Shown one piece after another: positions 11,331 to 62,639 of a DNA stretch of 64,000 nt. A program made the translations under genes and the position numbers. The notes beneath the pieces were generated by a model. That model searched no databases, was not told where the DNA came from, and saw nothing but the letters and a program-made list of their open reading frames with translations. The stretch's first letter is position 1. The number at the start of each line of letters is the position of its first letter. Source of the stretch: Felis catus (lineage: Eukaryota); NCBI RefSeq assembly GCF_018350175.1, contig NC_058368.1:102922001-102986000 (forward strand), given 5' to 3'.

Positions 11331-11542
11331 CACTTGTTTTCTTTTTGGCTATGCCAGCATCATATTGTCACCTGCTTGAGCTCTCCCTTTCTCTTGTCAC
11401 TCTAACTTGGTGCCTCCATAGTGTCTTCCATGGCCACTGCTTTCTTTCCCTTGATACAGCTCTTATGTATCAGAGGCTTTTATTGCTTTTCTCTTTGATT
11501 ATTGTGGAAGTCTACTGATTCATTTCTATGCTTTCCTTTTCT

Positions 11543-11769
11543 TTTTTTTTTTTAAATTTTTTTTCCACATTTTATTTATTTTTGGGACAGAGAGAGACAG
11601 AGCATGAACGGTGGAGGGGCAGAGAGAGAGGGAGACACAGAATCGGACACAGGCTCCAGGCTCCGAGCCATCAGCCCAGAGCTCGACGCGGGGCTCGAAC
11701 TCACGGACCGCGAGATCGTGACCTGGCTGAAGTCGGACGCTTAACCGACTGCGCCACCCAGGCGCCCCC
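11543..11769 (-). mobile_element. Young SINEC_Fc inserted at the tail of an older SINE
   Basis: 18-bp TSD tctatgctttccttttct at 11525-11542 and 11770-11787. Confidence 0.97.
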
Positions 11770-11787
11770 TCTATGCTTTCCTTTTCT

Positions 11788-11998
11788 GATGCTTTACTTA
11801 TTTTTGAGAGAGAGAAACCGAGCATGAGTGGGGGTGGGGGTGGGGGAGGGGCAGAGAGAGGGAGACAGAAAATCTGAAACAGGCTCCAGGCTCTGAGCTG
11901 TCAACAAAGAGCCCAACGCGGGGCTGGAACTCAGGGACCGTGAGATTGTGATCTGAACCAAAGCGGAAGCTTAAACGACTGAGCCACCTTGCTGCCCC
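11788..11998 (-). mobile_element. Can-SINE (older host)
   Basis: SINE body; outer flank ctatgctctct resembles the same target site. Confidence 0.92.
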
Positions 11999-12256: not shown

Positions 12257-12459
12257 GGGGTTCCTGGGTGGTTCAGTCGGTTAAGCGTCTGACTTCGGCT
12301 CAGGTCATGATCTCACTGTTTGTGAGTTAGAGCCCCGCGTCCGGCTCTGTGCTGACAGCTCAGAGCCTGGACCCTGCTTTGGATTCCGTGTCTCCCTCTC
12401 TCCCCGCCCCTCCCCTGCTCCACTCTGTCTTTCTCCCTCTCAAAAATAAATACCACATT
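12257..12459 (+). mobile_element. Can-SINE
   Basis: SINE body; degenerate TSD aaagtgtggcaga / aaagtgtatcaga. Confidence 0.93.
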
Positions 12460-12467
12460 AAGAAAAA

Positions 12468-12693
12468 TTTTTTTTTTTAATTTTTTTTTTCAACGTTTAT
12501 TTATTTTTGGGACAGACAGAGACAGAGCATGAACGGGGGAGGGGCAGAGAGAGAGGGAGACACAGAATCGGAAACAGGCTCCAGGCTCTGAGCCATCAGC
12601 CCAGAGCCCGACGCAGGGCTCGAACTCCCGGACCGCGAGATCGTGACCTGGCTGAAGTCGGACGCTTAACCGACTGCGCCACCCAGGCGCCCC
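12468..12693 (-). mobile_element. Young SINEC_Fc inserted antisense in the A-tail of the preceding SINE
   Basis: Diagnostic head; flanks aagaaaaa(a)tttt on both sides. Confidence 0.96.
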
Positions 12694-14069
12694 AAGAAAA
12701 AATTTTAAAGTGTATCAGAAGTTAGAAGGTAGAGGTATTGGGGACCATTGGGGAGTGAGAGCAGGATCATCTGATCTAGCCAGGAGGCCAGGGAACACTT
12801 CCTCCAGGCTGTGAGTCTTAAACATAATCTCTAAAGGATGCAGAGGATTTAGGCAGAAAGAACACTCCTGGCAGGAAAAATTGTTTGTGAAGGGACCAGA
12901 AGTGAGAAGAGATGTATAAAAGAAATTCCATGTGGCCAGAGCCTAGAGCTCCAGGGTCTAGACAGGTTGGCTCTGGGGAGGACCCAACAGGATGAGTCTG
13001 GAGAGACAGCACAGCAAAGACTGTCAAGGGCCATGCTAGAAACTGGATGTCATCGTAAGGACAATGGAAAGGACTGGTGGGACTTTTCGTAGAGGAATAA
13101 CTGAATCAGTTTTGGGATTTAGACACATTTAGGCAGGTTGCAGGTTAGAAAAAACTGGATGCGAGGCCTATTCCAAAGCTGAGTCCGTTAGCCACCTGAG
13201 GAATGACGATTAGCTGGATTAGGATACAGCAGTGGGAGCAGGGTGGTGAGAAGGGAGAGAGGCTGTGACCAGCGCCAGGTGAATAGGTGAGGGGAGCATG
13301 TTGAGGTAGGCGGGGAGGATTCCCGAGTGTCTCAGGCGACCCTGTGCTTGGTAAGCATCGCTCCCTGAGACAGTAAACCAGACAGACTGGGGTCCTATTA
13401 GATGGCATTTTGGCTAGCGATCCCAGAAACATCTGAATCTTATCCAAACATAGTTGCAGACAAGGCCCCTCAAGACCCAGTGGAAATGTATTTAAAAGGA
13501 AAAAAAAAGAAAAGCCGAGTAAACTGAAGAACAGTCATGAGCAGAGCTTTGGCTCCAAAGGACAGAGTGAAATTAATTTACAAGGTCTGCTGGATCACAC
13601 AAGAGAATCGTGTATCCCTAGGCAAAAAGTCGGGGGTCTTACTACCCCGTGCCTGCCAAAGATGACACGGTCTCGTATTCTACCAGCTTTTGTATTTTTG
13701 ACATAAGCCCTCATAACAGATGATAAATTCCCCGAGGACTGTTGATTTGTTGGCTATTCATCATTTCTTTATTCATGCGGCAAATACCGAGTGTTCGTTA
13801 TATACACGCCACTCTGCTGGACGGCGAGATTGTAAGAAGTCTATCACCTGGTGGGGGAGACGGACAAGGACCTAGGAAAGCATGAAGCAGAATCAGGGCT
13901 CTTACAGAGCTGTTCAGCAGGACCAGATGGGCTCAGGACAGACCTGAACCCAGTGGGATGGGAACTTAACAGCACCAGGCTCAATGTTGTTCATAAACGA
14001 TTTGATGAAATAAGTTTTTCTTTCACGGTTGAATATTCTCATTCTTCTTTTCTCTGATATTAAAAGCTT

Positions 14070-28906: not shown

Positions 28907-29144
28907 TTTTTTTAAATTTAAAAAAAAAATTTTTTTTCAACGTTTTTTTATTTATTTTTGGGACAGAGAGAGACAGAGCATGAACGGGGGAGGGTCAGAG
29001 AGAGAGGGAGACACAGAATCGGAAACAGGCTCCAGGCTCCGAGCCATCAGCCCAGAGCCCAACGCGGGGCTCGAACTCACGGACCGCGAGATCGTGACCT
29101 GGCTGAAGTCGGACGCTTAACCGACTGCGCCACCCAGGCGCCCC
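28907..29144 (-). mobile_element. Young SINEC_Fc nested at the tail of an older SINE
   Basis: TSD tgtattttctttttt at 28892-28906 and 29145-29159. Confidence 0.96.
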
Positions 29145-29159
29145 TGTATTTTCTTTTTT

Positions 29160-29390
29160 AAACATTTTAATCGTTATCTTTTTTAATGTTTATTCATTTT
29201 GGGGAGAGAGAGAAAGGCAGAGTGTGAACGGGGGAGCGGCAGAGAGAGAGGGAGACACAGAATCGGAAGCAGGCTCCAGGTTCTGAGCGGTCAGCACGGA
29301 GCCCGATGTGGGGCTCGAACCCACAAACCGTGAGATCGTGACCTGAGGCAAAGTCGGATGCTTAACTGACTGAGCAACCCAGGTGCCTCC
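29160..29390 (-). mobile_element. Can-SINE (older host)
   Basis: SINE body; outer flank atgtattttc at 29393-29402 matches 28891-28900. Confidence 0.93.
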
Positions 29391-29714
29391 CGATGTATTT
29401 TCACTTGCAAAATCTCTCTTCCTATACACACTGCCAGTGGTGTTTTGTGTTTTGGCTTACCAATGGTGAATTCTTTCCTCAGAATGAGACTCTCGAGTTC
29501 AGTGGGTGAAGGGTTCCATCCAGTAGGGTGCAATTCTGCTTCAGAATCTACCCACTTCCCTAAATGAATTAATACTGAAATGAGGAAGGTGAGCATCTGC
29601 AGCCATTAATCTTCTGACCCCTCTTAACTCTTTACAGGAGTTTGGTCCTCTGTTTTGAGTTAGAACAAAAACTCAGTAGAAAAAGCTAACCGTAAGGTAG
29701 AAACATTCTTATTC

Positions 29715-35559: not shown

Positions 35560-38550
35560 CTGAGCATTAAAATATGTGAGGTAAAAAAGGCTAGAGATGC
35601 AAAACAAACACACAAAGAAACAAACAAAGAACAAAAAAAAAATGATGAATTCATTATTACAGCTGGAGACTTTAACATCCTTCTATCAGAAACGGATAGC
35701 TCCAGCAAGCAGAAAATCAGTAAAGACACATTTTAACTCAAGAGCACTTTTAAACAACCGGATATAATCACCACTTTTCAACTACTCCATCCTACAACAG
35801 AAGATGACACATTCTTTTCAAACCCCCACGGTCCACTCACCAAGACAGACCACCTTCTGGGCCATAAAACACACCTTAACCAACTTAACAGAATACAAAT
35901 CATATAAATGCTCTCAGACCAGAGTGGAATTAAACTAGAAGTCAACAACCTTAAAAAGATAGCTAGAAAATTACCCAAATACTTGGAGATGAAACAGTAT
36001 GCTTCTAACTAACACAAGGGTCTCAGAGAAAAATGTCTGGAGCGGTTAAAAAATATTTTGAACTAAATAAAAATGAAAACCCAATTTATCAAAATTTGCA
36101 AGATGCAGCAAAAGCGGTGCTTCGAGGGAAATTTATAGCACTGAATGTTTATATTAGGAAAGAAGAAAGATCTAAAAATCAGTGATCCAAGGTTCTGCTT
36201 TAGGCAAACAGAAAAAGAAGAGCAAGTTAAATCCAAAGTAAGCAAAAGACAAGAAATAATAAGAATTAGAGTAGAAATCAATGAAATTAAAAACAGAAAA
36301 TCAAAGAGAATATCAGTGAAACCAAAAACTAGTTGTTGGAAAAGGTCAATAAAGTTGGTAAGCTTTTAGGCAGGCTAACTAAGGAAAGAGAGAGAGTGAG
36401 AGAGTGAGAGAAAGAGAGAAGGAGAGAAACACAATTTATTATACCAAAAACAAAAGAGAGGGCATTTCTATAGATACCATGGACATTAAAATGATAATAA
36501 ATTAGCATTATGAAAAATTTTATGCTCGCAGATTTGATAATCTACATAAAATGGACCAATACCTTGAAGGGCACAATCTCTCCAAACTTACACAGGAAGA
36601 AATACACAATTTGAATAGGCCTATATCTATTAATGAAACTGAATCAATAATGAATAACTTTCCAAAAAAGAAAGCACCAGACTCAGGTGGGTTCACCGGT
36701 GAATTACACCAAACCTGTAAGGAAGAAATTATACTAATTCTCTACAATTTCTTCTGGAAAACAGAAGCAGAGGGAATACTTCCTAATTCATTCTATAAGA
36801 CCAGCATTACCCTGAAAACAAAACCAGACAAAAACATTACAAGAAATAAAAACTAGAGACCACTATCTCTTTTGAAGGTACATGTAAAAATTCTCAACAT
36901 AATATAAGTAAATCAAATCCAGCAAAAATTTAAAAAAATATTTATACACCATGATCAAGTAGGATTTATCACAGGTATGTAAGGCTGGTTCAACATTCAA
37001 AAATCGATTAACATAACCCATCACATCAATTGACTAAAGAAGAAAAATCTCATGATTATCTCACAAGGTGTGGAAAAAGCATCTGACAATATCCAACACC
37101 CCTACTTGATACAAACTTTTAACGGACTAGGGATAGAAAGGAACTTTCTTACCTTGATCAAAGACACCTATAAAACCCTACATACTGAATGGAGAGAAAC
37201 TCAAAGCTTCCCTACTAAGATCAGGAACAAAGCAAGGATGCTCCCCTGCCAGCCACTGCTTCCTTCAATATTGTATTGGAAGTCTCAGCTAAAGCAATGA
37301 GATAAGAAAAAGAAATAAAATGTATGCATATTTATTTATTTATTTATTTATTCATTTATTTTTAAATGTATGCATATTTAGATTGAATACATAAAGCGAT
37401 CTTTGTTTGCAGGTGACTTAATTGTTTTTGTAGAAAATCTGGAAGGACGGAGGAAAAAAATCCGAAACTAGTAAGTGGTAATAGCAAGGTTTTAGGATTT
37501 AAGATTAATATACAGAAGTTAATTGCTTTTCTCTACATGTCAGAAGTGATGTAGTGAAATTTGAAATGAAACATAATACCATTTACATGACGCTCCCCAA
37601 AACAAAATACTTAGATATAAATTGAACAAAGGATATGTAAGATCTATATGAGGAAAACCATAAAACTGTCATGAAAGATATCAAATGACTAAAGAAATGG
37701 AGAGATATTCATGTTTGTGGATAGGAAGATTCAATATTTTCAAGCTATCAGTTCTTCCTAACTTGATTTATAGATTCAGTGTAACTTTAATGAAAATCTC
37801 AGCTAGTTATTTTGTGGGTATTGAATAACTGATTCTCAAGTGTACATGGGGACGAAAAAGACAAAGACGAGCCAATTCAAAACTGAAGGAGAAGAACAGA
37901 GTCAGAAGACTGATACTACCTGACTTCAAGGCCTAGTTTAATGTTACAGTAATCAAGACAGAGTGGAATTGACAGACCAATAGACAAATAGGTCAATGAA
38001 ACAGAATACAGACCCCTGAAATACACCAACATCCATATGGGTCACTGATTTCTTACAAAGGAGCAAAGGTAATACAATGGAACAGAGACAACTTTTTCAA
38101 CAATGGGTGTTGGAGCAACTGGATGTCTACACGCCAGAGGGGGGGGGGAGAGGGAGGGAGAGAGAGAGAGAGAGGGAGACAAAGTGGGGGGGGGGAGGGA
38201 GGGAGGGAATTACTTATACACAAATCTTACTGTGTTGACAAAAATTAATTCTAAATGGATAAGAGACCTAAATGTAACATATAAAACTGTAAACTCACAA
38301 AATTCAACAATAAGAAAACAAACAACCATTTCTAAATATATTTAAAATACCTGAACAAGCATCTCATCAAAGAAGATCTACCGTGGCAATAACCATATGA
38401 AGAGATGTTTGATATCACATGTCATTAGGAAATCGCAAATTGAAACAGCAATGTCAAAACACTGCACATTTACTTAAGTGGCCAAAATCTAAAATACTTG
38501 ACAACATCAAGGGAAAGCAAGGCTACAGAGCAACAGAAAGTCTCGTTCTT
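35560..38550 (+). mobile_element. L1M (L1MC-like) ORF2 region, decayed and internally deleted
   Basis: Endonuclease-region DNA gctggagactttaac..cagaaaatcagtaaagac; ORF2 peptides EKEEQVKSKVSKRQEIIRIRVEINEI and LNRPIS..KKAPDSGGFTGE..GILPNSFYKTSITL. Confidence 0.95.
36551..36856 (+). pseudogene. L1 ORF2 fragment (Z region leading into reverse transcriptase)
   Basis: MDQYLEGHNLSKLTQEEIHNLNRPI..GILPNSFYKTSITLKTKPDK matches the recalled L1 ORF2 MDKFL..LNQEE..LNRPI..LPNSFYEASI.LIPKP. Confidence 0.9.
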
Positions 38551-38556
38551 TCCCAC

Positions 38557-38700
38557 CTCAGAGCCTGCAGCCTGTTTCAGGTTCTGTGTCCCCCTCTCTC
38601 TCTGTCCCTCCCCCACGCATGCTGTGTCTCTCTCTCTCAAAAATAAATGTTAAAAATAAATTACAAATAAAGTTTTTTCAATAAAAAAATAAGTATAAAA
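38557..38700 (+). mobile_element. 5'-truncated Can-SINE at the junction of two L1s
   Basis: Starts mid-body ctcagagcctgcagcctgtttcaggttctgtgtc; A-tail present; no TSD seen. Confidence 0.85.
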
Positions 38701-40520
38701 GTATATGCAAGTGGCCACTAAAGCACTCCAAACATGATAAAATAAAAACCAATTACAACTAGATTGAGGTATCATTTCTTACCTCGCAAATTGCTAGAGT
38801 TCAAAACCTAAATGCCATGCTTAGTGAGGCCGTGGGATACTCTCAGACACTGCACAAGAAAATGCAAGATGCTGCGATTTCTATGGAGGGAAGTCTGGCA
38901 AAGTTCCATACGGTGACATATACATTTGACGACACAGCTACAGGAACACGAAATCAAAGAAGCCTATCCCAATAAGAATGGTGAACAGTTTATGTTGTAT
39001 CCACACAACGTAACGCTATGTAGTCCTTCAGCAAACAAACAAGACAGAGAGAGGGAGGGAGACACAGAATCCGAAGCAGGCTCCAGGCTCCGAGCTGTCA
39101 GCACAGAGCCTGACGTGAGGATCCAGCTCACAGACCATGAGATCATGACTTGAGCCAAAGTCGGAGGCTCATCCGACTGAGCCACCTAGATGCCCTGATC
39201 GTGGTTTCTAAATAGCATTCTCCACTGAAAGAAACCAGGTTCTTCAGAGAATTGGCTGATTCTTCCAGGGATAGGAAAGTACAGGATAAGGCTCAGTCAA
39301 TATGTGCTAGAAATTAAGAAAGCATTCAAGTCCAAATGAGCTTATGTCAGCAGGGTAAAGGTGCTAGCTTGAAGGGCTCCCATCAGACAAGTTAGAGACA
39401 GTCTGGCATCCAAATAATGATAATATCACTAACAGCACTGTGTTAAACATATATGGAAAAAAAAAAATCACAGTGAGAGACAGAAAAGACAAAGAGGAGA
39501 AAAGAAAAAGGAGTAGGATTTTTCTATTTCGAATAATGCCACATAAATCCAGATTGAATGGTAGAATATTACACGTTTCCAATGTAATAAGTGATTCTGG
39601 CAAGGATTACTAAAAGATGATTATACTATTGGGTGAAGTTGGTTAGGAAATAAGATAGTCATGCAATCTTAAGGTATCATCACTCAGATTATTTATTATT
39701 TATAAAGAGAAAATTATACACCTAGCAAAGAGACACGTGACAGTCACTAGTTTAACAAAATGGTCAAACTTCACACTGTCAATAGGGGGACGAATTGACA
39801 CATGTTTCTTTTAACGTGATGTTTCTCTGGACGTACAAATCCAGCTCTGAAATGTTCCCAACAAAAGTCTTCAACCTGGGTCTGGTGGTGAGGAATACAT
39901 CGAAGTGATCTGGAATCTGTGACACATTCTTTAAGGTGATTGCCTTGGAATCTTCGAAACTGTTCAAAATCAGAGAAGGTGAGGACAGTGCTTCCTCCAT
40001 CAGAAGGGAATCAACAAACATTTCCTGTGACAGGCAGCCACCAAGCTTTCACGCTTTCCTAAGCCGTCTGTCTGATATTCTTCCTTGTTTTTTGTTTGTT
40101 TTATTTTTGTTTGGTTTTACAACTCTTTAAAAATGTAAAAATCCTTGTTAGATTGAGACAGAAAAACAAACCATGCAGAAGTGTCCCATGCCGTAGTTTG
40201 ATGACTGCTGTTCCAGATTTAAAGGAAAAATGAAGAAATATAACAGCCAAAAGCAATTTGCAAACCTTGAATGAATTCGAGATTGAAAAACAAACCAACT
40301 ATAAACGTCACTTGGGGACTAACAGGAGAAATGCAAATGTGGTCTGTATATTAGTAGATATTTTTGAACTACTGTTGTTTTCTCTACCATGTGACAATGG
40401 CATAGTGGTTACACTGGAAGATGTCATTTTCAGCGATGACTACTGAAATATCCCCAAGTGGATTGTTACACTAACTACAAATTGCTTTTAAACGTTGTAG
40501 GGAACATATATAGAAATAAA
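38701..40520 (+). mobile_element. Second, older L1 3' region (L1MC3/4-like)
   Basis: ggtttctaaatagcattctccactgaaagaaaccagg..ggctgattc and gtgacaatggcatagtggtta resemble the recalled L1MC 3'UTR. Confidence 0.7.
39042..39195 (-). mobile_element. Tail-less Can-SINE
   Basis: Head and body present, A-tail absent. Confidence 0.88.
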
Positions 40521-46538: not shown

Positions 46539-47019
46539 TTTTTTTTAATTTTTTTAACGTTTATTTATTTATTTATTTATTTATTTAATTTATTTATTTA
46601 AAAAAAATTTTTTTTCAACGTTTATTTATTTTTGGGACAGAGAGAGACAGAGCATGAACGGGGGAGGGGCAGAGAGAGAGGGAGACACAGAATCGGAAGC
46701 AGGCTCCAGGCTCTGAGCCATCAGCCCAGAGCCTGACGCGGGGCTCGAACTCACGGACCGCGAGATCGTGACCTGGCTGAAGTCAGACGCTTAACCGACT
46801 GCGCCACCCAGGCGCCCCTAACGTTTATTTTTGAGACAGAGAGAGACAGAGCATGAACAGGGGAGGGGCAGAGAGAGAGGGAGACACAGAGCCGGAAACA
46901 GCCTCCAGGCTCTGAGCTGTCAGCACAAAGCCCGACGCGGGGCTCGAACTCACAGACCGTGAGATCATGACCTGAGCCGAAGTCGGACGCTTAACCTACC
47001 GAGCCACCCAGGCGCCCCG
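46539..47019 (-). mobile_element. Can-SINE host with a young SINEC_Fc (46567-46818) inserted in its tail
   Basis: Outer TSD tgtatttgcattctt at 46524-46538 and 47020-47034; inner TSD taacgtttattt at 46555-46566 and 46819-46830. Confidence 0.96.
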
Positions 47020-52098: not shown

Positions 52099-53034
52099 TA
52101 TCTTGTTCTTTTCAACGGTTGCTTAATATCTTATCGGACAGGTGACCCACAATTTATTTCACCACTCAGCCCTTCAAGCTTCCTCACCTCCCACGTGTTG
52201 CTTCCTCTGTCTTAAAGAGTCTTTCCTTGCCTATTTGGCAATCTTCTTCTTAAGCTCAAGGACCAGCTTAAACATAACTTTCTCTGTAAAATCTCCCTCT
52301 CATTTCCCAGGAAAAATTCACTCTGTTCTCATTTATATGCATAACTCCATTACAGCTCTTCAAGAGCCTGAGGAGAAGCGTGCTAGGTATTAAGAGATGA
52401 AGTTCAATGAGTGTTTATTAGATGCCAGATATTTTTTAAAGTCCTTAATCTGTACTAACTACCTGAAGAAACTGCTTTCTTGATGGCATTATCAAAATGC
52501 TGATTATGATGTCTTTTACTCTGAATTTTACACAAGGTGAGATGACTTTTTTCTTACGTGCAAGAGAAAAGAATCCCAACTCACCTGGTACTGGGGAATG
52601 CCTACCATTGTGCATGGAGTCTGGCGGGTGCAATATAAAAGCTGCATTCTCTCTCCTTTTAACCAGTAAGTTCCCTCCCTGACTGTGGTCATCAGACCTT
52701 AATCACATAGGTATCGCGGGGGGCCAGGATAATAATTTCCTCATGGTGGAATCTCAGTAAATATCTGCCTAGTGAGTTAATGAATCGGCCATAGAGGTGA
52801 GATAATTTACTAAATGGGAAGGAGCTGGACAACTTAATACCTTTCCTGAGTCCACAGTTTCTTCATCTTTAAGGGGTTTACTGTTTTAACTGCTTTGTTG
52901 ATGTAAAAGATTAGGGCTAAAGAACCCCTGATATTATATACTTGAGGGCTAGTAATTCAAGTTCTAGTACACATAGGCTGCAGTTTTTCAGAATTCAAGT
53001 CCTTAGGAGAGAGCCTTAATTTAAAACACAATCG

Positions 53035-53236
53035 GGGGCACCTGGGTGGTTCACTCTGTTGAGCGTCAGACTTTGGCTCGGGTCATGGTTTTGTGGTTTG
53101 TGGGTTCGAGCCCCTCATCGGGCTCTGTGCTGACAGCTCGGAGCCTGGAGCCTGCTTCGGATTCTGTGTCTCCCTCTCTCTCTGCCCCTCCCCTGCTCAT
53201 GCTCTGCCTCTCTCTGTCTCAAAAATAAATAAAACC
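53035..53236 (+). mobile_element. Can-SINE with microsatellite-expanded 3' TSD
   Basis: 5' TSD ttaaaa(ca)2atcg 53021-53034; 3' copy ttaaaa(ca)7atcg 53237-53260. Confidence 0.94.
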
Positions 53237-53639
53237 TTAAAACACACACACACACAATCGTATCATGTTATACGAAACTGAAAAAAGACACTGATTTAAA
53301 AAAATTTTTTTTTAGATATTTAAAGAAGACTCTTGCACTAAGATCTAGACAAGATAGTTACAGGTGACTAAGTTCTGTGCACACCTGGTTTCCTAGCAGC
53401 TCATCAGTGCCTATTAACCTTCCTTCTTCGAACTCCGTGATTGAGGAGAACAAAGTTGCAAAGTTGAACTGAGCATCTCACAGCAGCACATATCTCCATG
53501 ACGGTGAGCGTGCCGAGTGGGCACTGACTCTTGATTTACTGGCAATTTTAAGAATGGATCTCCGGACAGGTAGTAAATTAAGAGCAAACTTGCACTGGTC
53601 AGGTATTTTATAGCTTCCTGTGAGTGGCAGGGTAGCCAA

Positions 53640-53860
53640 TAATAACAACAATTATTCACAGAACCAGGCACTGTGCAAAGTGTGTTACAAATATTCTCTC
53701 ATTTAATCTCATGACAAGACTAGGATAAAGGTATTTTTAACCCCATTTTACCGATGAGTCGATTGAGACCTAGGTTAGATCCATTAAGGTGTCTATGGCC
53801 ATGCAGATAGGGATAGAGCTGTATTTGAGTCTCGGCAACTCCAGGCCCATGTTTTGTTTC
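53640..53860 (-). mobile_element. MIR
   Basis: ccaggcactgtgcaaagtg..ctcatttaatctcatgacaag..ccccattttaccgatgag..ttgagacc. Confidence 0.75.
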
Positions 53861-54167
53861 ACTAAAGCATTCAGGGCATGGGCATTCAAAGAGAGAAGTC
53901 AGTGCTGACTTCCTGTTTTCTTAGTAGAATCTGGACGCAGCCTCACGTCATAAATCATCATTTAAGAAGGGAACTAGAAAGTCCAAGTTTTTGTTCCTCA
54001 GCCCTGTAGCCTCAAGTGTTTGATTAATGCAACTGGTGGGCATTACAAGCTATTTAGAAGAGCGTGTAACCTTTATTTAAGGACCTTTAGGTCCTTAGAA
54101 CCTAAGGAAGTAGGAGATGATTGCCTCATGGAGAAATTCCAGGAACTGTTAGGAATAGGAAGGCAGA

Positions 54168-54318
54168 TTCTGTGTCTCCCTCTCTCTCTGCCCCTCCCCT
54201 GGTTGTACTCTGTCTCTGTCTCTCTAAAATAAATAAACATTAAAAAATAATAATAAAATAAAAGACTCAGGCTACAAACTCAAATATGCAAGGAATGCCA
54301 TGCTCATTAGAAAAAAAA
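54168..54318 (+). mobile_element. 5'-truncated Can-SINE plus 47-nt non-SINE tag plus second poly(A)
   Basis: Perfect 14-bp TSD aataggaaggcaga at 54154-54167 and 54319-54332 encloses SINE 3' half (54168-54263), unique tag (54264-54310) and A-run (54311-54318). Confidence 0.88.
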
Positions 54319-54629
54319 AATAGGAAGGCAGAAAAATGAGGACTGGAGAGACTGATACTCATTTTCCTCAATATGAAGGCAGTTTACATAATAACTCAGT
54401 TATGGACCTGGTTCTCCCTTTATATGACCTGAGGGCAAATGAATGGTACCCATAATACCTACCTGTGGCTCTAGAGCCAGGAAGATGCTCTCAAACCTGC
54501 ATGACCTCAAGAGAGGAGCAGAGCAACCTACATGTTCACCCCATATGTTTACCGGCTGCCACCTGTGAGATCCCCGTGCTGTGGGTAGTAAGGAGTAAAA
54601 AGCATGACTTACACTGCCAGCAGCCTCTG

Positions 54630-55114
54630 TTAGTATAAGATGGTCAGGAGATGAATCCCTGTTAGTCTCTGACATATCTGCACACCTTGCGAGCAGAAAC
54701 ATTTTTTCAAGGATGTTTGTACAGTAAATAGCCTCGGAGGACAGAGATAGCGTCGTTCTACAGAGCAGAGGTCTGGGTCATCTATCGTTCGGTATAATAA
54801 AGATGAGGTGGGCAAGGTGCACAGGCTAGGGCAAGGCTGAGGCACGTGTGCTTGCAGCCCGTTATAAAAGATGCAGGTTCCTCAGGCGTGATGCAAGCCA
54901 ACAGTGTCGTCAGCATCTATGGGAGGCACATCGCATCATCACACGGGACTCGGTGGGGGCGAGGGAAACTGACGTGGACGTGAAGCTCATGGTGTTTGCT
55001 GTACTGTGAGTCATAAAGTCCTTTGCCTCTGCCCCAGGGGCCTTGTGTCTTCTGCTAGGTTAATCTGTTTGCTTGCAAACAGGGTAAACTCGCTGATCCT
55101 TCACAGTCTTGACA
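54630..55114 (+). mobile_element. ERVL-class solo LTR (MER54-like)
   Basis: ctgcacaccttgcgagcaga..ttttcaaggatgtttgta..ttataaaagat..cttgcaaacagggtaaa..ccttcacagtcttgaCA; family name from memory. Confidence 0.7.
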
Positions 55115-62130: not shown

Positions 62131-62639
62131 ATTTATTTTTTATTAAAAAACATTTTTTTTTTAAATTTTTTTTTTTTCAACATTTATTTATTTTTGGGAC
62201 AGAGAGAGACAGAGCATGAATGGGGGAGGGGCAGAGAGAGAGAGAGGGAGACACAGAATGGGAAACAGGCTCCAGGCTCTGAGCCATCAGCCCAGAGCCT
62301 GACGCAGGGCTCGAACTCATGGACCGCGAGATCCTGACCTGGCTGAAGTCGGACGCTTAACTGACTGCGCCACCCAGGCGCCCCTAAAAAAATTTTTTTT
62401 AATGTTTATTTTTTCAGAGAGAGACAGAGAGCAAGCAGGGGAGGGGCAAAGAGGGAGACGCAGAATCCAAAGCAGGCTCAGGCTCTGAGCTGCCAGCACA
62501 GAGTCTGAAGCAGGGTCAAATCCACAAACCACGAGACCATGACCTGAGCCGAAGTGGGATGCTTAACCCACTGAGCTACCCAGGCTCTCCAAAGAAGAAC
62601 TTTTTTTTAATGTTTATTTATTTATTTATTTTTAAGAGA

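What the first reader, a model, noticed from the sequence alone, without database searches (positions are those of the whole stretch)
54154..54332. Apparent SINE-mediated 3' transduction: one TSD pair encloses SINE + 47 nt foreign sequence + second poly(A)
Seen: a perfect 14-bp TSD (aataggaaggcaga) brackets a headless Can-SINE 3' half with its AATAAA-rich tail, then gactcaggctacaaactcaaatatgcaaggaatgccatgctcattag (54264-54310), then an A-run. The tag has no TTTT. The 5' junction overlaps the SINE consensus (caga/ttctgtg), as expected for truncated L1-driven target-primed reverse transcription. Known: 3' transduction is classic for L1 and SVA. Inference: an RNA that read past a source SINE into its flank (Pol III read-through, or a Pol II transcript polyadenylated on the SINE AATAAA) was retrotransposed. 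The tag would then identify the source locus.
Basis: partly seen in the sequence, partly recalled or inferred. Interest (0 to 1): 0.72.

Follow-up and report, generated by a model that had tools for sequence, protein, structure and literature searches.

The report
Truncated SINE retrocopy carrying flanking DNA
A short jumping-gene copy in a cat-family genome was pasted in together with 47 extra bases that probably come from the DNA next to its parent copy; this is a known kind of by-product of retrotransposition, though whether SINEs cause it by themselves is disputed, and the parent copy could not be found.

Summary
The structure is real. A perfect 14-bp duplication (54154-54167 = 54319-54332) encloses 151 nt: the 3' 80 nt of a felid Can-SINE, a decayed A-rich tail, a 47-nt tag with no other match in the window, and 8 A. 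One L1-driven insertion of an RNA that ran past a SINE into its flank is the best reading (about 0.78). The decisive tests (source locus, empty site) could not be run: no genome is held and the one read search listed no run. Which polymerase made the RNA is open. The tail starts 48 nt after the last AATAAA, outside the 10-40 nt mRNA range and inside the 28-97 nt range of polyadenylated Pol III read-through RNAs of the B2 SINE. But those RNAs keep 2-5 T before the tail and this one ends TTAG; it is also the only truncated copy among 10 SINEs with a perfect TSD. I give Pol III read-through 0.42, Pol II passenger 0.36, two-RNA or two-step origins 0.16. The missing TTTT is no evidence (72% of 47-mers lack it). 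New example of a known kind.

The parts
54154..54167 (+). 5' copy of the 14-bp target site duplication; its last 2-4 nt overlap the SINE consensus (5' junction microhomology)
54168..54247 (+). 3' part of a feliform Can-SINE (polypyrimidine motif, two AATAAA, rudimentary TT terminator, A6); head with A and B boxes absent. Closest to the older-type copies at 53030 and 16996, not to the youngest type in the window
54248..54263 (+). decayed A-rich tail with two more AATAAA (54252-54257, 54257-54262); longest pure run in the whole tail is A6
54264..54310 (+). 47-nt non-SINE tag, inferred flank of the source locus; no poly(A) signal, no T-run of 3 or more, no unusual fold, no Rfam match; ends TTAG
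54311..54318 (+). terminal A-run (8 A), inferred priming site of reverse transcription
54319..54332 (+). 3' copy of the target site duplication

Best explanation
One L1-ORF2p target-primed insertion of a SINE read-through RNA. A Can-SINE elsewhere in the genome, whose own terminator was only TT and whose A-tail had decayed, was transcribed by Pol III past its tail into about 47 nt of flank. The RNA ended in a usable A-tract beyond the tag, either a genomic A-run or a poly(A) added after termination at a downstream T-run (AAUAAA-dependent, as described for T+ SINEs). ORF2p primed there, copied tag, tail and 80 nt of SINE, stopped, and joined the 5' end through 2-4 nt of microhomology, leaving a 14-bp TSD. 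Shown: the anatomy. Inferred: single event, RNA intermediate, tag = source flank. Least certain: Pol III. The result is an inert, promoterless copy. This route plus the Pol II rival (same single event, other polymerase) sum to about 0.78.
For: One non-chance TSD pair encloses all parts. The tag is unique in the window and not SINE-derived. The tail/tag junction is A-rich followed by ordinary sequence, as at the tail/TSD junction of other SINEs in the window. The 48-nt gap between the last AATAAA and the A-run is outside the mRNA range (15-25 nt, extremes 10 and 40) but inside the 28-97 nt (mean 50) range of polyadenylated Pol III read-through RNAs of mouse B2, PMC12101331; its Figure S6 shows RNAs with the same layout: SINE end, TT rudiment, A-tail, flank, poly(A). 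Dog Can-SINE Pol III transcripts are polyadenylated through AAUAAA, and that paper proposes capture of a terminator lying in the TSD, PMC9599045. In de novo Alu inserts priming seldom occurs in the first 20-25 nt of the tail and can occur beyond non-A interruptions, PMC3415434. An A8 run 30-110 nt ahead without an intervening TTTT occurs at 541 of 25552 sampled window positions, 2.1%, so the genomic A-run route is available to many SINEs.
Against: No source locus and no empty site were seen. The B2 read-through reads shown in the passages I saw keep 2-5 T directly before the poly(A); here the tag ends TTAG, which needs the G to be a later change in the tail, or a genomic A-run. This is the only 5'-truncated copy among 10 SINEs with a perfect TSD of 14 nt or more in the window; the other 9 start at the SINE head, and truncation is more typical of long RNAs (established knowledge). 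The promoter is absent and cannot be checked. A screen of 118,489 full-length AluY found 633 candidates and confirmed none. The target site is not canonical for L1 endonuclease (TATT/CC). The evidence on polyadenylation comes from mouse B2 and dog Can, not from felid SINEs.
Confidence: 0.42

Rival explanations
1. Same single insertion, but the RNA was a Pol II transcript in which an old SINE was a passenger: the 3' end of an mRNA or lncRNA, a cryptically polyadenylated intronic or intergenic RNA (class 1 TSIP-like), or an orphan L1 3' transduction truncated before it reached L1. This is not SINE-driven transduction.
For: 5' truncation, unique among 10 perfect-TSD SINEs here. The SINE part is an older type with a decayed tail. 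No T-run directly before the A-run. Sense Can-SINEs are about ten times enriched at 3'UTR ends in dog and supply AATAAA, PMC11699766. L1 3' transductions are documented in canids, about 1.8% of dimorphic L1s, PMC12458276. L1 copies polyadenylated intronic and intergenic RNAs in trans, PMC5110952.
Against: Nearest AATAAA ends 48 nt before the A-run and three more lie further up, all skipped; none of 18 signal hexamers lies in the tag. Dog 3'UTR peaks lie at 22-36 nt counted from the hexamer's 5' base; here that distance is 54. The tag folds no better than its shuffles (z +0.71 and -0.33), so a hairpin that shortens the distance is possible but not supported.
Confidence: 0.36
2. Template switch or RNA ligation in one event: ORF2p began on an unrelated polyadenylated RNA (the tag) and jumped through A-rich microhomology to a SINE RNA, as in U6/L1-type chimeras.
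For: One TSD pair would result; the junction is A-rich. Earlier notes on this genome report chimeric inserts in one TSD (AI notes, not checked here).
Against: The tag has no poly(A) signal, no Rfam match and no likeness to the L1 or other repeat fragments in the window, so no abundant partner RNA is evident.
Confidence: 0.08
3. Two steps: a truncated SINE inserted first with the 14-bp TSD; later a 47-nt 5'-truncated retrocopy landed in its A-tail, with its own TSD hidden among the A residues.
For: SINE tails attract later insertions in this window (tandem and nested SINEs near 11525-11900, 28946-29400, 46625-47018, 62243-62619), and the tail holds T/AAAA sites.
Against: The second TSD could only be about 4 A, whereas the perfect TSDs listed here are 14-18 nt; the tag lacks a poly(A) signal expected within 47 nt of an mRNA or L1 end; two uncommon events are needed.
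Confidence: 0.08
4. No transduction: the tag is native DNA, or the layout arose by deletion, DNA-level templated repair or an assembly error, and the 14-mer pair is not the TSD of the whole insert.
For: The endonuclease site is non-canonical; no reads were available to confirm the assembly.
Against: The repeat abuts the SINE truncation point and the terminal A-run exactly, chance about 8e-6; no shorter TSD closes the SINE before the tag; TSD plus A-tail are the marks of the L1-mediated class, not the repair class, in PMC5110952.
Confidence: 0.06

Closest known systems
L1 and SVA 3' transduction, including orphan/parentless cases (canine data: PMC12458276, PMC13103737, PMC13756887; passages read)
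   Same: Element 3' end + A-tail + unique tag + second A-tail inside one TSD; the tag should map to the source.
   Different: The element here is a Pol III-type SINE, truncated; no poly(A) signal within 48 nt of the tail; source not mapped.
Alu 3' transduction (386 high-confidence calls, 0.033% per element, in preprint 10.1101/2021.07.12.451456, passages; none confirmed among 118,489 AluY in 10.1101/2024.04.29.591526, whole text; a single Alu-monomer case by Kojima known to me only as cited there)
   Same: SINE with extra sequence before a distant 3' TSD. Unlike the rejected AluY candidates, the extra sequence here is not a mutated A-tail and the TSD is 14 nt and non-chance.
   Different: Can-SINE is a T+ SINE with AATAAA signals, which Alu lacks; this copy is truncated and its gap is under the 70 nt that screen required.
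Category C Pol III transcripts of mouse B2 (PMC12101331; sections 2.3.2 and 3.2, passages, and passages of Figure S6)
   Same: SINE end with rudimentary TT, A-tail, 28-97 nt of flank, then poly(A): the RNA that would give this insert.
   Different: Those are RNAs, not genomic retrocopies; the reads I saw keep 2-5 T before the poly(A), while this insert ends TTAG; different SINE family.
Class 1 templated sequence insertion polymorphisms / truncated retrocopies of Pol II RNAs (PMC5110952; part 1 of 4 and passages)
   Same: Short insert with TSD and A-tail, made by L1 ORF2p from a non-L1 RNA.
   Different: They have a poly(A) signal 10-30 nt before the tail and prefer TTTT/A sites; here 48 nt and TATT/CC; polymorphism not known.

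Membership tests
L1-mediated (TPRT) insertion | Target site duplication of typical length around the whole insert | tested here: met
   14 of 14 nt, chance about 8e-6
L1-mediated (TPRT) insertion | 3' A-tract next to the 3' TSD | tested here: met
   8 A, 10 with the TSD start; short of the 10-nt homopolymer cut-off used in PMC12458276 unless the TSD bases are counted
L1-mediated (TPRT) insertion | Endonuclease site like 5'-TTTT/AA | tested here: inconclusive
   TATT/CC at the perfect TSD edge; TCCT/AA if the nick lay 3 nt further left, giving a 15-of-17 TSD; 1 of the 9 other TSD pairs (6228, ATTC/CT) also has two pyrimidines after the nick
L1-mediated (TPRT) insertion | Empty site in relatives with one copy of the target | not testable with these tools
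   no genome held; read search listed no run
3' transduction | Unique, non-element sequence between element tail and 3' TSD | tested here: met
   47 nt, no match in window, to 42 SINE copies or to Rfam; no repeat library (Dfam/Repbase) was available, so an old repeat fragment is not excluded
3' transduction | Tag maps directly downstream of a source element elsewhere | not testable with these tools
   no felid genome searchable; exact scans with a 24-nt part of the tag found 0 matches in three mostly non-mammalian collections, which is uninformative
Pol III SINE-driven transduction (criteria of 10.1101/2024.04.29.591526) | No Pol III terminator inside the copied stretch | tested here: met
   no T-run of 3 or more in 151 nt; weak, 72% of 47-mers lack TTTT
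Pol III SINE-driven transduction (criteria of 10.1101/2024.04.29.591526) | Full-length source SINE of the same subfamily with a T4 terminator downstream of the tag | not testable with these tools
   source not found; head missing in this copy
T+ category C retrocopy (polyadenylated Pol III read-through) | AATAAA within about 30-100 nt of the poly(A) | tested here: met
   48 nt against 28-97 nt
T+ category C retrocopy (polyadenylated Pol III read-through) | Truncated terminator (2-5 T) directly before the poly(A) | tested here: inconclusive
   TT is followed by AG and then 8 A; fits only if the G is a later or untemplated change; reads have T directly before the tail
Class 1 TSIP / Pol II retrocopy | Poly(A) signal 10-30 nt upstream of the tail | tested here: not met
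   nearest AATAAA 48 nt; none of 18 hexamers in the tag
Class 1 TSIP / Pol II retrocopy | Presence/absence polymorphism and a distant donor locus | not testable with these tools

The most novel reading that the evidence does not exclude
This is a genomic retrocopy of a Pol III read-through RNA of a T+ SINE: a Can-SINE that carried its own 3' flank to a new site. If so, T+ SINEs, unlike Alu, transduce flanks routinely because their AATAAA lets far-terminated transcripts be polyadenylated, and such tags would name active source SINEs in cats and dogs. My 8 searches listed no paper showing this for carnivore SINEs, but the library lacks most subscription journals. Probability is for Pol III SINE origin by either route; the strict polyadenylation route alone I put near 0.15.
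Probability: 0.4. Interest if true: 0.55.

Novelty: new member of a known kind. Interest (0 to 1): 0.33.

Why it matters
The copy itself is inert and has no evident function. Its value is as a test case. SINE-driven 3' transduction is disputed (386 Alu calls in one study, none confirmed in a stricter one), and the sources of SINE amplification are hard to identify. T+ SINEs such as Can have a documented way to polyadenylate read-through RNAs 30-100 nt past their tail, which predicts exactly this layout. One BLAST of the tag against a felid genome would settle the case, and a genome-wide screen for the same layout would give a rate and a list of source elements. If the source proves to be a Pol II RNA, the finding is an ordinary truncated retrocopy.

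Tried and rejected
Whole-genome search: no genome is held for this window. Read data: the single run search (53850-54440, DNA runs, library word PACBIO) listed none; none was listed, which does not mean none exists; my filter may have been too narrow, and with no run ids the read-laying tool was not used, so empty site, source locus and assembly correctness stay untested. Exact scans with a 24-nt part of the tag: 0 matches in metagenome, viral and prokaryote contigs; expected for mammalian DNA. Earlier findings by sequence, nearby place and relatives: nothing. Rejected: tag as a local copy; tag as a sense or antisense SINE fragment, prompted by a likeness seen by eye (score reached by 41 of 200 shuffles and 73 of 200 random window 47-mers); tag as a structured RNA or Rfam member (5 matches at E 1.3-7.3, all far below gathering scores; folding z +0.71); absence of TTTT as evidence for Pol III; the perfect TSD as proof that the insertion is younger than its SINE sequence, since copies only 69% identical to the probe (1567, 6282) keep perfect 15- and 17-nt TSDs. 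Text searches of PMC9599045, PMC8466645, PMC12101331, PMC12984919 and PMC3415434 for 'transduction' gave 0 occurrences. Gene context was not determined: 47 ORFs of 100 aa or more were listed and not searched against protein families.

Full report
Observation. The window is feliform DNA, judged by its dense Can-SINEs (43 matches to a full-length local copy; the family name is from my knowledge of the consensus and from PMC4084570, passages). The 14-mer at 54154-54167 recurs exactly at 54319-54332. Between the two lie 151 nt: the 3' 80 nt of a Can-SINE (54168-54247), a decayed A-rich tail (to 54263), a 47-nt tag (54264-54310) and 8 A. No shorter TSD closes the SINE before the tag.

The SINE part. 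It aligns at 87-88% to the best other copies and is closest to the older-type copies at 53030 and 16996, not to the youngest type. The head with the Pol III promoter is absent. The other 9 SINEs with a perfect TSD of 14 nt or more are full length (218-249 nt); this one is the only truncated one. At the 5' junction the TSD's last two bases, GA, match 26 of 34 other copies and the last four match 3 of 34 (read by eye), so the microhomology is 2-4 nt. The perfect TSD does not date the event, because copies only 69% identical to the probe also keep perfect TSDs.

The tag. It has no second copy in the window, is not SINE-derived, matches no Rfam family and folds no better than shuffles. It has no T-run of 3 or more, but 72% of window 47-mers lack TTTT, so this says little. 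Four AATAAA lie in the SINE tail; the nearest ends 48 nt before the A-run, and none of 18 signal hexamers (list recalled) lies in the tag. No repeat library was on hand, so the tag may still be part of an old repeat in the source flank.

Target site. At the edge of the perfect TSD the bottom strand reads TATT/CC, unlike the L1 consensus; if the nick lay 3 nt further left it reads TCCT/AA and the TSD is 15 of 17 with two G read as A next to the tail. The second reading is my inference. One other SINE in the window also has an odd site.

What could not be tested. No genome is held. The one run search listed nothing, so no reads were laid. Scans of non-mammalian collections with part of the tag found nothing, as expected.

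Mechanism. A single L1-driven insertion of an RNA that held SINE, tail, tag and an A-tract explains every part with one event (about 0.78). Two-RNA or two-step origins need a partner RNA without a poly(A) signal and, for nesting, a TSD of about 4 A (0.08 each). For the polymerase the evidence is split. For Pol III: the 48-nt spacing lies outside the mRNA range (15-25 nt, extremes 10 and 40) and inside the 28-97 nt range of polyadenylated read-through RNAs of mouse B2 (PMC12101331), whose Figure S6 shows the same layout at RNA level; dog Can is a T+ SINE with AAUAAA-dependent polyadenylation (PMC9599045, abstract, sections 1, 3.3 and 3.4); priming avoids the first 20-25 nt of a tail and can pass non-A interruptions (PMC3415434, passages); an A8 run lies 30-110 nt ahead without TTTT at 2.1% of positions (541 of 25552). 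Against Pol III: the B2 reads I saw keep 2-5 T before the poly(A) and this insert ends TTAG; the copy is truncated; a strict AluY screen confirmed none of 633 candidates (10.1101/2024.04.29.591526, whole text). For Pol II: sense Can-SINEs often end dog 3'UTRs (PMC11699766, parts 1-2 of 6), L1 transductions occur in canids (PMC12458276, PMC13103737, PMC13756887, passages) and L1 copies cryptically polyadenylated RNAs (PMC5110952); but four AATAAA would have been skipped or used at an unusual distance. I commit to Pol III read-through at 0.42 against 0.36 for a Pol II passenger; these odds are judgement, not computation.

Comparison and novelty. The layout is that of a 3' transduction, long known for L1 and SVA. 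For SINEs it is reported but disputed: 386 Alu calls in the T2T preprint (passages), none confirmed later, one Alu-monomer case known to me only as cited there. Eight searches listed no paper showing it for carnivore SINEs; the library lacks most subscription journals, and I did not read the supplements of the canine papers or of the two preprints, which may list such cases. It works like a 3' transduction; membership is not shown because the source was not mapped. It fails the 10-30 nt signal test of class 1 TSIPs. Earlier notes on this genome describe other composite inserts in one TSD, unchecked here; they show only that chimeric routes are worth keeping as rivals.

Verdict. Real, well-formed, single-locus and inert; a new member of a known kind with a modest chance (about 0.4) of being a clean case of SINE-driven transduction in a T+ SINE. 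Interest 0.33; about 0.55 if the source proves to be an intact Pol III SINE.

Noticed in passing
window 54149-54153 and 54307-54310: TTAG stands just before both TSD copies (followed by G on the left, by the A-run on the right). Probably chance, but it allows a 17-nt imperfect TSD with a more L1-like nick site.
   Followed up: partly
window about 54430-55110: A block that looks by eye like a solo retroviral LTR (TATA-like and poly(A)-like motifs; resemblance recalled, not tested); no second copy in the window.
   Followed up: partly
window about 53660-53880: MIR-like old SINE upstream of the insert (recalled resemblance).
   Followed up: no
window 46625-47018, 62243-62619, 28946-29400, 11525-11900: Head-to-tail and nested Can-SINE pairs, where a young copy sits in or right after the tail of an older one.
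   Followed up: no
window 12257-12700: Two Can-SINEs in opposite orientation joined tail to tail.
   Followed up: no
window 53030-53260: Full-length older-type Can-SINE whose tail has turned into an (AC)n microsatellite that seems to have grown from its TSD.
   Followed up: no
window 18200/18233 and 37318/37364: Exact direct repeats of 19 nt (spacing 33) and 17 nt (spacing 46) not tied to a SINE: small tandem duplications or very short inserts with TSDs.
   Followed up: no
window about 36000-40000: A-rich stretch with an ORF fragment (36506-36856) that resembles L1 ORF2 by recall.
   Followed up: no
window 54266-54310: Read by hand, one frame of the tag ends in a C-x-x-C-H motif and a TAG stop just before the A-run; most likely chance in 15 codons.
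   Followed up: no
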